Below, one piece after another: positions 30,001-33,000 of a stretch of DNA of 36,655 nucleotides. Made by a program: the position numbers. Source of the DNA: a virus; UHGV virus genome UHGV-0180966; one strand, written 5' to 3'. The number at the start of each line of letters is the position of its first letter. Positions within the stretch are counted from its first letter, which is position 1.

Positions 30001-33000
30001 CATGAATGCTCTGAATACAGCGGTCGCAAGACAGGAACGGCTTGGGACGTCTGCCAATCAAAGCCTGCTTACATCCTTGCGTAACCTACGTGAAGAATTA
30101 GCAAACCCTGCAACTGATTTGGATGTTACGTTTGATCTCTTGCGTCAGCACAGAACAGCATTTAGATCTAATGTTCAGGGAGATGCTATGGTCTTCCCCA
30201 ACCAGGCAAAAGCAGCTACCAATATGGTAGAGAATGCAATGTCAAAAGACCTTCGTAACGCAGTTGCTAAAAACCTCGGTGCATCAGACGCAGCAAAATA
30301 CCTTAAAGCAAATTCCGATTATGCAAACGTTTATAATAAGGTGCTTAATAAAAACATTGCCAACAAGCTCAACAAGGCAAGCAGTGAAGCCAGTCCTGAA
30401 CTTATAAATACCGTTGTATTAAGCAGAAAACCATCTGACGTGAAACGAATCTGGAGCGCATTGGATGATAAAGGGAAAGATGCTATGCGTGCAGCTTACG
30501 TCAGCAAAATAGCGGAAAAGGCCGGGGACTCTCCAGCCAAGTTCATCACTGAAGTTAATAAGCTGAAATCTCAGTCAGGCGGTGAAATTTACAACACTAT
30601 TTTTTCTGGAAAGCACATGAAAGAACTTGATGCTCTTCATGAAGTTCTACAGCAAACAGCAAGATCAGACACCGCAAATGTAGTAACTCAGACGGGGCAA
30701 TCACAAGCCAACAGGATAAGGACGATTGGCGCAACTGCGACTCTTGGAGTATCAATGGGGATTGAGGCTGGTTTTGGTGCAATGATGCGTTTGTATGAGT
30801 CCAAAGCAGCAAGGAATGCGCTCTTACGTCTGGCAAACACTAAAGCTGGAACGCCAGCCTATGAAAGAGCGCTGAATAACGCCGCAAATGCCATCAGACC
30901 AATACTTGCCAATGATGCAACTGATCGCTAAGGGTTGATGTCATGGATGTTGTTAATTGCGAATGGAATCGCGGAACTCTTTGCTTGATAGAAAAGGATC
31001 TGTTCTCCTTAACTCATCATAGTTTTTATTAAACTTTCTTGCTTCACCTGGGTATCTGTTGAACAAAACATTGCAGAAAAAAGAGAGCAATAACTCACAT
31101 ATGAATGCTAATACCCTGAAAAATAAAGGTATAAAAAGAAGGGAAGGTTCATTGAAGTCTCTATTCCAAACAAAATAGACAATCATCCCGACATACCAAA
31201 TTGATATCCCTATACTGATGATTGTTCCAACAGAGGTAACTACGATCCCGATTAAGTCGGACAGTCTGTTTGCCAGTAACTCATTTGAGTATCTTGCAAT
31301 CATATACCGCCAACATTTTGCAATATCATCCTGATCTGTAGAGTCTTCTGGAATAGCTAGGCTTCTACATATTGAAGTAGCTCTTTTTTTCTCAACTCTT
31401 TTTGAGAGCCATCCATTAAAGAGATACATCAACACCTGCGTTGCTATTCCTGCACCAAGTGATATCAAAGACATCCCCAAAAATCGCCATCCTGGAGATA
31501 GTGACTGGTATTGCCAAACAAAAAAAATTAAAAAACCCAATGAGCCTATGACATAGGCTGATGTATCGCTATATATATCTATTTTTTTCATTGAGTAGCC
31601 ACTCCTTAGTTTTGTGCGGTATGAAAAATTTAAATCAGGCCTTCATCGGTGAGTTTGCCGACAATCCACATCTCACCCTCGGCGTAGAACATGGCTCGCC
31701 GGTAACCATCCTCAGCTTTTAAGCTCTTGCAATCTTCTCAGCGCATTTACGCACAACTCGCGGTATCGTCTCTTTCAGCTCATCCCACGAGTTGACAAAC
31801 TCCATATCAAGAGCCTGAACAAGAGACTTCTGTATCTCGCTGCGCAACTGGTTGGTTTTTGCATCCTGAGAATCCCAGGTATCAAACCCGGTAACTTCAC
31901 GGATATCTATCGATTCCTTAACCACCTTTGCAACCTGAATGAAATGACCACTATGACCAATCCTACCTTCTGTACGCTCAAGCATCCGACTAACTGCTGC
32001 GTTAAGCTCCACAAAACTTGCCGCACCAATGTTTCGCAACTCGACCTGTCGCTGGGTGATAAAACGATCAATGACGAGAAAGTGGAAATAAGTGCTGTAC
32101 TGCTCGGCGACATACACCGCCAGATGGAGACTTAGCCACGTTTTCCCATTCCTTCCTCTCGTTGTTTTTAACGGAATAATACCAGTCTCCTCTTCACAAA
32201 CACGCATGAAGTCTTTGCAGTCATCCGTTTTCAGTATCTGAGCAAGATTTCTTGGTTGAAGGCCGTTATCAAATCTCCATCGGTTCATTTGAACGGTTAG
32301 TGTTGACGCATCGATATACTCATCTCTGGTGAACTCGACTTCACCGTATGGGAACTCTAAAGTCTGCACTTTCATATCTTTTTCTCCAATTAATTACCTC
32401 ACTTAAATTATATTCCTAATTTATTTGTTTATGCAACCATTAATACGCAAAATTAGAGCAAATTAGACTTTTTAGGTGTTTGCGTGTGAACAATCTCTAG
32501 CCATGCCATCACTCCAAGTTAGTGTATTGACATGATAGAAGCACTCTACTATATTCTCAATAGGTCCACGGTGGACCCATGTTGTGAGGTGAATATGAAA
32601 GGAATGAGCAAAATGCCGCAGTTCAATTTGCGGTGGCCTAAAGAAGTATTGGATTTGGTCCGCAAGGTGGCGGAAGAGAATGGTCGGTCTGTTAACTCTG
32701 AGATTTATCAGAGAGTAATGGAAAGCTTTAAGAAGGAAGGGCGCATTGGCGCGTAAAGTTGAAGCCCCAACTGCGGGAGCAGTCAGGGCTTAAATCGCCA
32801 GTAAATTTTGAGGAAAAACTGACATGAAAAGTATAGCAACAGCAGTATCTACTATCAACGTGCCATTCCACGGCGCAGAGCTTTATGTCGTCAATCACAA
32901 CGGCGAACCGTATACCCCAATGAAACCTATCGTTGAGGGAATGGGTATGGATTGGGCTTCACAGTTTACAAAGTTAAAACAAAGATTTGCTAAAGGTATT

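What the first reader, a model, noticed from the sequence alone, without database searches (positions are those of the whole stretch)
32762..32858. sar-like antisense RNA locus between arc and ant
A minus-strand promoter (TTGATA, 17-bp spacer, TATACT) lies within the first codons of ant and would transcribe across the ant RBS and the 67-bp arc-ant gap, ending near a stem-loop. This matches the organisation of the P22 Sar antisense RNA.
Basis: partly seen in the sequence, partly recalled or inferred. Interest (0 to 1): 0.4.

Follow-up and report, generated by a model that had tools for sequence, protein, structure and literature searches.

The report
P22-type sar antisense RNA gene
This is a true copy of the well-known phage P22 "sar" small antisense RNA, which blocks translation of the antirepressor gene ant; it is an ordinary, correctly recognised element, here in a patchwork version and in a phage that has lost most of its lysogeny controls.

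Summary
The observation and the interpretation both hold. On the minus strand, TTGATA (32858-32853), a 17-bp spacer and a TG-extended TATACT (32835-32830) lie in ant codons 3-12. Rfam RF00262 (sar RNA) matches 32823-32757(-) full length at 62 bits, above its 43-bit gathering score. The RNA starts opposite the base before the ant ATG and covers the ant Shine-Dalgarno and the whole 67-bp arc-ant gap. It ends at a hairpin and tail identical to P22's.

It folds into two stem-loops, with the anti-SD CCUC in loop I. Across 25 distinct homologues, 97.6% of cells pair and 7 pairs carry compensatory changes. About a quarter of the pairs are G-U, so the structure belongs to the minus-strand RNA. The TGnTATACT -10 sits at the same ant codons in about 142 of 144 related loci, across several unrelated Ant N-termini.

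What differs is modest. The RNA is a recombinant: its terminator hairpin is P22-type, while stem-loop I, Psar and the ant start come from another lineage. The surrounding genome has no mnt, a deletion-truncated ant and a deleted cI.

Verdict: a new member of a known family. Interest is low.

The parts
32853..32858 (-). Psar -35 hexamer TTGATA (5/6 to consensus). It is encoded by ant codons Ile-Asn of the '...TINV...' motif.
   Evidence: This hexamer is shared by 41 of 144 related loci that carry the same ant allele. P22 has the much poorer GTGTTA here.
32830..32838 (-). Psar extended -10: TGC-TATACT (TG at 32838-32837, hexamer at 32835-32830). It lies in ant codons 3-5 (Ser-Ile-Ala).
   Evidence: TG flagged; identical in P22 and epsilon34. 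TG present in about 142 of 144 loci and TATACT in about 128 of 144, across several unrelated Ant N-termini.
32755..32823 (-). Predicted sar RNA of 67-69 nt. The 5' end, G, is at 32823, 7 nt downstream of the -10 and opposite the base before the ant ATG. The 3' end is inferred at 32756/32755, within the complement of the arc stop codon.
   Evidence: Rfam RF00262 matches 32823-32757, 62 bits against gathering score 43, model positions 1-68 of 68. The 3' end is inferred from a tail identical to P22's and from the 69-nt length quoted for P22 sar (PMC3134472).
32797..32823 (-). sar stem-loop I. The stem is GUCAGU (32823-32818) paired with ACUGGC (32802-32797). The 15-nt loop (32817-32803) carries the anti-Shine-Dalgarno CCUC (32813-32810).
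   Evidence: All 28 distinct 5' halves in relatives fold the same way starting at nt 1. All 6 pairs vary, 4 of them with double changes, and 95% of cells pair.
32762..32791 (-). sar stem-loop II, the terminator/stability hairpin: 13 bp with loop UCCC, followed by the tail CAACUUU.
   Evidence: The interior is replaced, with pairing kept, in the L125-L143 lineage.
32810..32826 (+). The sar target. It comprises the ant Shine-Dalgarno GAGG (32810-32813), a 10-nt spacer and the ant ATG (32824-32826).
   Evidence: Sequence read directly. Complementarity to sar is perfect because sar is encoded on the opposite strand.
32824..33555 (+). ant, truncated: 243 aa, with the P22_AR_N domain only. Homology to full-length (307 aa) alleles stops at 33470; 27 unrelated residues follow.
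   Evidence: Pfam. PHROG anti-repressor profile covered only at positions 4-207 of 317. A 755-bp deletion relative to E. coli prophage L144.
32595..32756 (+). arc, 53 aa, the transcriptional repressor of Pant. It is co-transcribed with ant.
   Evidence: Pfam Arc, E = 1e-30. One amino-acid difference from P22 Arc (R16K), inferred by translating the DNA alignment.
32527..32578 (+). The Pant region. It holds Pant (TTGACA-17-TATATT, 32527-32555), the overlapping Arc operator (about 32532-32552) and the Mnt operator (AGGTCCACGGTGGACC, about 32562-32578). The divergent Pmnt lies on the minus strand (32560-32532).
   Evidence: Identical to P22 and epsilon34. Promoter annotations in X01916 and epsilon34. 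The operator boundaries are from my own knowledge of P22.
32472..32504 (-). mnt remnant. Only the codons Met-Ala-Arg-Asp survive; homology to P22 ends at 32493, and unrelated sequence runs to a stop (MARDCSHANT*).
   Evidence: tblastn with two Mnt proteins finds no mnt anywhere in the window.

Best explanation
Window 32755-32858 (minus strand) is the sar gene of a P22-like phage, together with its promoter Psar. RNA polymerase starts at an extended -10 promoter that lies inside ant codons 3-12. It transcribes leftward for 67-69 nt and stops at a GC-rich hairpin next to the arc stop codon. The RNA has two stem-loops. Loop I displays CCUC, the complement of the ant Shine-Dalgarno sequence. The RNA is fully complementary to the arc-ant intercistronic region. 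By pairing with arc-ant mRNA, it covers the ant ribosome-binding site up to the base before the AUG and prevents translation of the antirepressor. That mRNA comes from Pant, and from late-operon read-through on the way to the tailspike gene. Arc meanwhile shuts off Pant. What is shown here: family membership, promoter geometry, structure, covariation and strand specificity. What is inferred from P22 work: that the RNA is made, ends at the hairpin, and represses ant translation. This copy is a recombinant, with a P22-type hairpin II joined at the shared GGGCUU/AAGCCC arm to a different lineage's stem-loop I, Psar and ant start.
For: RF00262 matches full length at 62 bits against a gathering score of 43. 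Psar is at exactly the positions annotated in epsilon34, ant nt 7-35. The distance from the -10 to the RNA 5' end is 7 nt. The two-hairpin fold has z = -5.05. All 28 distinct 5' halves found in relatives form a hairpin from nt 1, with the anti-SD in or next to the loop. On 25 distinct homologues, 97.6% of cells pair, against at most 46% when partners are slid. Seven pairs have changes on both sides, and no shuffle of 500 reaches the observed values. By my count from the table, about 114 of 499 cells are G-U. These would be A-C on the sense strand, so the structure is selected in the antisense RNA. The TGnTATACT -10 keeps its position in about 142 of 144 loci despite unrelated Ant N-termini. 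In E. coli prophage L004 an extra gene separates arc from ant, yet sar stays next to ant. The published mechanism is that sar pairs with the ant RBS and blocks Ant synthesis (PMC7968456; PMC13397905). The latter paper also detected sar reads in P22-infected cells. The recombinant origin is shown.
Against: There are no expression data for this phage. The hairpin tail (CAACUUU) is a weak U-run and the generic terminator scan missed it. The basal G-C pair of hairpin II in P22 is U/C here (NC marks). The Rfam score, 62, is lower than for some E. coli prophage copies (72-78). The regulated gene is truncated, and mnt and cI are absent or deleted, so the regulatory purpose known from P22 may no longer matter in this genome.
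Confidence: 0.9

Rival explanations
1. The element is an evolutionary relic. It is a sar homologue by descent but no longer does anything useful here. The immI circuit it serves has decayed: mnt is gone, ant is truncated, cI is deleted, and no int lies in the usual place.
For: mnt is reduced to 4 codons and is found nowhere else in the window. ant lost its C-terminal ~91 codons through a 755-bp deletion. cI carries a 310-bp frameshifting deletion relative to HK022. Only about 0.7 kb separates the tailspike gene from PL-operon-type genes, which leaves no room for int/xis.
Against: Every functional element of sar, Psar, arc, Pant and the operators is intact. The ant translation start is intact and a 216-residue N-terminal Ant fragment is still encoded. 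The same arrangement occurs on 5 contigs, from at least two samples or runs, one at ~2167x coverage. So this is a replicating phage that has kept these elements. Ant overproduction is harmful to P22 lytic growth (the arc mutant phenotype described in PMC12111858), which could keep arc and sar under selection.
Confidence: 0.12
2. The promoter-like hexamers are a by-product of ant coding sequence, and the hairpin acts on the sense strand, for example as an arc mRNA 3' stabiliser or processing site. In that case no antisense RNA matters.
For: The sense strand also folds a hairpin here. The hexamers lie within coding sequence.
Against: The sense-strand fold is weak (z = -2.2) against -5.05 for the antisense strand. 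About 23% of paired cells are G-U and would be A-C mismatches in the sense RNA. The -10 and its TG are conserved at a fixed position across unrelated Ant N-termini, which coding constraint alone does not explain. No U-tract follows the hairpin on the + strand. sar has been detected experimentally in P22.
Confidence: 0.03
3. Psar works mainly by convergent-transcription interference with Pant and late transcripts, through polymerase collision, rather than by RNA-RNA pairing.
For: Psar and Pant are convergent and about 300 bp apart. A modelling paper on convergent promoters lists sar among antisense examples (PMC3134472).
Against: Conserved, covarying structure and an anti-SD loop are features of a diffusible pairing RNA. 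As far as I recall, P22 genetics showed that sar acts in trans (Wu et al. 1987; my own knowledge, paper not held).
Confidence: 0.05

Closest known systems
Phage P22 sar RNA (Rfam RF00262; Liao et al. 1987, Wu et al. 1987, Schaefer & McClure 1997)
   Same: The position (antisense to the arc-ant gap and the ant SD), the length and the 5' end abutting the ant ATG all match. So do the extended -10 TGCTATACT in ant codons 3-5, the two-hairpin architecture and the 3' tail. Hairpin II differs at only 2 loop-proximal bases.
   Different: The 5' half differs at about 12 of 34 positions, including one indel. Stem I changes from GUUGGU/ACUGAC to GUCAGU/ACUGGC with pairing preserved. The -35 is TTGATA (5/6) against P22's GTGTTA (3/6), because the ant allele differs. 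The basal G-C of hairpin II is lost. There is no mnt and ant is truncated.
Annotated sar/Psar of Salmonella phage epsilon34 (EU570103)
   Same: The arc/Pant/operator/hairpin II region is 95% identical. The sar and Psar annotations fall at the homologous coordinates.
   Different: Epsilon34 has the P22-type stem-loop I, a P22-type 300-aa ant and an intact mnt.
Unannotated sar-like element of IMG/VR contigs L125-L143 (e.g. L131 6965-7031)
   Same: Stem-loop I, Psar and the first ~110 nt of ant are identical or nearly so (0-4 mismatches per 40 nt). The two-hairpin fold is the same.
   Different: The interior of hairpin II is different, though it still pairs. The Arc-like and Mnt-like repressors differ. 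This lineage scores only 29 bits with RF00262, below the gathering score.
Other cis-antisense translational repressors of mobile elements (IS10 RNA-OUT; lambda OOP)
   Same: Each is a short structured RNA made from a promoter inside or next to the target gene and complementary to its translation-initiation or coding region. This comparison rests on reviews PMC5415839 and PMC7968456.
   Different: They have no sequence or structural homology to sar and different targets. OOP acts through RNase III-dependent decay. The resemblance is analogy only.

Membership tests
sar RNA (Rfam RF00262) | Covariance-model score at or above the curated gathering score (43 bits), full length | tested here: met
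   62 bits, E = 1.2e-10, model positions 1-68 of 68, at 32823-32757(-)
sar RNA (Rfam RF00262) | Encoded antisense to the intercistronic region upstream of ant, covering the ant Shine-Dalgarno, with the 5' end next to the ant start codon | tested here: met
   The RNA spans 32823-32755. The ant SD is at 32810-32813 and the ATG at 32824.
sar RNA (Rfam RF00262) | Own promoter (Psar) inside the first codons of ant, convergent with Pant | tested here: met
   TTGATA-17-TGC-TATACT at 32858-32830, the same ant positions as the annotated epsilon34 Psar. The -10 is conserved in about 142 of 144 loci.
sar RNA (Rfam RF00262) | Two stem-loops: a 5' hairpin with the anti-SD in its loop, and a 3' GC-rich hairpin | tested here: met
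   MFE and centroid structures agree, z = -5.05. 97.6% of cells pair, with 7 compensatory pairs across 25 variants.
sar RNA (Rfam RF00262) | Transcript of 68-69 nt actually made and terminated at the hairpin | not testable with these tools
   Only a tail sequence identical to P22's. This needs a Northern blot, RACE or RNA-seq.
sar RNA (Rfam RF00262) | Represses ant translation by pairing with ant mRNA | not testable with these tools
   Complementarity is perfect by construction. The function is inferred from P22 work.
P22 immI region (mnt-arc-sar-ant) | arc with the Pant/Arc operator | tested here: met
   Pfam Arc, E = 1e-30. The promoter and operator block is identical to P22.
P22 immI region (mnt-arc-sar-ant) | mnt repressor gene divergent from Pant | tested here: not met
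   Only 4 codons remain. tblastn with two Mnt proteins finds only Arc in the window. The Mnt operator and Pmnt are still present.
P22 immI region (mnt-arc-sar-ant) | Full-length antirepressor (N- and C-terminal domains) | tested here: not met
   Only P22_AR_N is found. There is a 755-bp deletion relative to L144 with its junction at 33470.

The most novel reading that the evidence does not exclude
sar may come in exchangeable specificity cassettes. Stem-loop I, Psar and the ant translation start would move together between phages by crossing over in the conserved arm of hairpin II. That would give each immI region its own private antisense/target pair; at least about 9 clearly different stem I types are seen here. 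This phage keeps arc and sar intact although it has lost cI, mnt and the Ant C-terminus. That retention would mean sar has a role in lytic growth that is independent of lysogeny control. Possible roles are holding down a harmful N-terminal Ant fragment, or protecting late-operon read-through to the tailspike gene.
Probability: 0.15. Interest if true: 0.4.

Novelty: new member of a known kind. Interest (0 to 1): 0.15.

Why it matters
It matters little beyond correct annotation. Metagenome pipelines did not annotate sar on this contig, and the call is sound. Three side results have modest value. First, the comparative set gives clear covariation and strand-specific (G-U) support for the sar structure. 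Second, it shows that the extended -10 of Psar is embedded in, and constrains, the first codons of otherwise unrelated ant genes. Third, a whole sar lineage (L125-L143) falls below Rfam's threshold. The decayed immunity context (cI-, mnt-, ant truncated) with arc and sar retained offers a natural test of whether sar matters in purely lytic growth.

Tried and rejected
- **Exact searches in GTDB species representatives.** Exact and degenerate searches for the window's sar 5' half found nothing. The host therefore could not be named this way.
- **E. coli complete genomes.** The best match to the 131-bp sar region is only 88% identical.
- **Junction search in IMG/VR.** The mnt-remnant/new-gene junction gave 0 hits.
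- **Generic terminator scan.** It did not flag the sar hairpin because the U-run is weak. I did not count this against the call, since P22 has the same tail.
- **Primary literature.** Schaefer & McClure 1997 (PMC1369469) is not held. Searches for Psar/Pant papers found only secondary sources. Details such as trans action, or activation of Psar by Pant transcription, rest on my memory and are marked as such or left out.
- **Minus-strand ORF 32728-32898 (56 aa).** I rejected it as a gene. It starts upstream of Psar, has no family support, and overlaps sar only by geometry.
- **Circularity of the contig.** There is no terminal overlap, so genome completeness is unproven.

Full report
**What is in the sequence.** The + strand carries arc (32595-32756, 53 aa, Pfam Arc E = 1e-30), then a 67-bp gap (32757-32823), then ant (32824-33555, P22_AR_N domain). 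On the minus strand, the promoter scan finds TTGATA at 32858-32853, a 17-bp spacer and TATACT at 32835-32830. The site matches 10 of 12 consensus positions and has a TG extension. Under the same rule, only five sites of this quality exist on both strands of the whole 36.6-kb window, and only two carry the TG. The others include Pant and Pmnt.

**Identity.** A gathering-threshold scan of the whole window against Rfam gave one hit: RF00262, sar RNA. It lies at 32823-32757 on the minus strand, scores 62 bits against a gathering score of 43 (E = 1.2e-10), and covers the model end to end.
- The predicted 5' end at 32823 lies 7 nt downstream of the -10 hexamer and opposite the base just before the ant ATG.
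- Window 32493-32839 is 94-95% identical to P22 and epsilon34.
- The epsilon34 record annotates sar, and a promoter "located by similarity with P22 Psar", at the homologous positions, ant nt 7-35.
- The P22 immI record X01916 annotates Pant and Pmnt where the scan finds them here.

**Structure.** The 69-nt minus-strand RNA folds into two hairpins (MFE equals centroid, -27.8 kcal/mol, z = -5.05).
- Stem I pairs nt 1-6, GUCAGU, with nt 22-27, ACUGGC. Its 15-nt loop contains CCUC, the complement of the ant Shine-Dalgarno GAGG at 32810-32813.
- Stem II is a 13-bp GC-rich hairpin (32791-32762) followed by CAACUUU, the same tail as in P22.
- The sense strand folds much less convincingly (z = -2.2).

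**Comparative evidence.** A pattern search for the hairpin in IMG/VR returned 120 loci. A second search, for the window's 5' half, returned 19 more.
- Among these I found 28 distinct 5' halves. Every one forms a hairpin starting at nt 1 with the anti-SD in or beside the loop.
- On an alignment of 25 distinct variants with the two-helix structure, 97.6% of cells pair, against 28-46% when partners are slid by 1-3 columns. Seven pairs carry changes on both sides, and no shuffle of 500 reaches the observed values. One sequence (L033) is misaligned in its 3' arm, which lowers rather than raises these numbers.
- By my count from the same table, about 114 of 499 cells are G-U. On the sense strand these would be A-C, leaving only about 75% paired. 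The structure is therefore a property of the antisense RNA.
- The -10 is conserved. TG sits two bases upstream in about 142 of 144 loci, and the hexamer is TATACT in about 128 of 144. The position in ant codons 3-5 is always the same, although the Ant N-termini fall into several unrelated groups.
- The window's -35 TTGATA is shared by 41 loci with the same ant allele. It is closer to consensus than P22's GTGTTA.
- In E. coli prophage L004 an extra ORF lies between arc and ant, yet the Rfam hit stays next to ant. The RNA is tied to the ant translation start rather than to arc.

**Mechanism.** In P22, sar pairs with the ant ribosome-binding site and blocks Ant synthesis (PMC7968456; PMC13397905; PMC2629481). 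The quoted length is 69 nt (PMC3134472), and sar reads were recovered from infected cells. Because sar is encoded opposite its target, complementarity here is perfect.

The locus lies in the late operon, between the ejection-protein genes and the tailspike gene. Late read-through transcripts would therefore also carry the ant start, as discussed for P22-like phages (PMC12111858). I infer that the RNA is made, ends at the hairpin and represses ant translation. None of this can be shown with sequence tools.

**How this copy differs.**
- The exact 5' half is absent from the GTDB species representatives searched and from complete E. coli genomes, where the best match is 88%. It is absent from the first 120 IMG/VR loci.
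- The 19 IMG/VR contigs L125-L143 carry the same stem-loop I, Psar and ant start. They have a different hairpin II interior, and different Arc-like and Mnt-like genes.
- Segment-wise comparison shows a mosaic. The window is P22/L003-like up to about 32777. It is L131-like from about 32778 to 32935 (0-4 mismatches per 40 nt). It is L003-like again from 32936.
- The left crossover lies in the shared GGGCTT arm of hairpin II (32786-32791). The antisense recognition half, its promoter and its target have thus been swapped as one ~150-bp patch. For a cis-encoded pair this necessarily keeps them matched.
- The L131 lineage folds the same way but scores only 29 bits with RF00262.

**Context.** The circuit that sar serves is decayed in this genome.
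- mnt is cut after four codons at 32493 and no mnt exists elsewhere. In its place is a 218-aa gene that is 93% identical to a Jersey-like Salmonella siphovirus protein.
- ant lost its C-terminal third, together with most of a downstream HNH endonuclease gene, through a clean 755-bp deletion relative to E. coli prophage L144. The junction is at 33470.
- The immunity region is HK022-type, and its cI carries a 310-bp frameshifting internal deletion.
- Only about 0.7 kb separates the tailspike gene from PL-operon-type genes, so there is no int/xis where P22 has them.
- The window is the whole contig NODE_344 of ENA assembly ERZ1034905, with ~2167x coverage in its name. The same truncated Ant occurs on five contigs, including one from an independent run. 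These features are therefore unlikely to be assembly artefacts.
- Taken together, this looks like a phage that can no longer lysogenise yet keeps arc, Pant, the operators, sar and Psar intact. Either they are recent relics, or restraint of the remaining Ant fragment still matters during lytic growth. I cannot decide this from sequence.

**Verdict.** This is a recombinant new member of the known sar family. Interest is low, because the system has been understood since 1987 and the family model finds it directly.

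Noticed in passing
window 32472-32504 and 31719-32375 (minus strand): mnt is truncated after 4 codons (MARD, then unrelated sequence to a stop). 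It is replaced by a 218-aa gene that is 93% identical to a protein of Jersey-like Salmonella siphoviruses (PHROG 6095, labelled 'amidase'; weak KilA-N hit). Pmnt and the Mnt operator remain. No mnt is found elsewhere in the window.
   Followed up: yes
window 33470 junction; ant 32824-33555; minus-strand ORF 33276-33596: A 755-bp deletion relative to E. coli prophage L144 fuses ant codon ~216 to the antisense of an HNH endonuclease gene. It removes the Ant C-terminal domain and most of the endonuclease. The same truncated Ant is found on 5 contigs, from at least 2 samples or runs.
   Followed up: yes
window about 2111-2501 (minus strand), junction 2413-2419: The immunity region is HK022-type (cI, cro, cII; 97-99% identical). 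Its cI has a 310-bp internal, frameshifting deletion, so no functional prophage repressor is encoded.
   Followed up: yes
L125-L143, e.g. L131 6965-7031 (minus strand): This is a sar-like lineage. It has the same stem-loop I as the window but a different hairpin II interior (pairing preserved), next to different Arc-like and Mnt-like genes. It scores 29 bits with RF00262, below the 43-bit gathering score, so current Rfam-based annotation misses it.
   Followed up: partly
window 4258-7164 (+): The 968-aa primase/helicase-type replication protein (Toprim_2 and AAA_25) appears to be interrupted, just after its P-loop GHGK, by an intein-like insert. Pfam hits are Hom_end-associated Hint (below its curated cut-off) and LAGLIDADG_3. 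The insert starts with Cys and ends with ...THN|T.
   Followed up: partly
window 35072-36655 and 1-730: After the tailspike gene come two small ORFs and then minus-strand PL-operon-type genes (a Rha/Ant-like gene, Abc2; a cIII-like gene at the other contig end). No integrase, excisionase or gtr genes lie where P22 has them. The contig has no terminal overlap, so completeness is unproven.
   Followed up: partly
L004 1757-1978 (E. coli 19AR1724 prophage) and similar hits H53-H65: Some E. coli prophages carry an extra 73-aa ORF between arc and ant. In L004, the one checked with Rfam, sar (RF00262, 77.7 bits) lies after it, directly upstream of ant.
   Followed up: partly
window 1475-1891 (minus strand): An HNH endonuclease gene (PHROG 59) sits in the PL region beside the deleted cI. 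It is the second homing-endonuclease-type gene or remnant in this genome.
   Followed up: no
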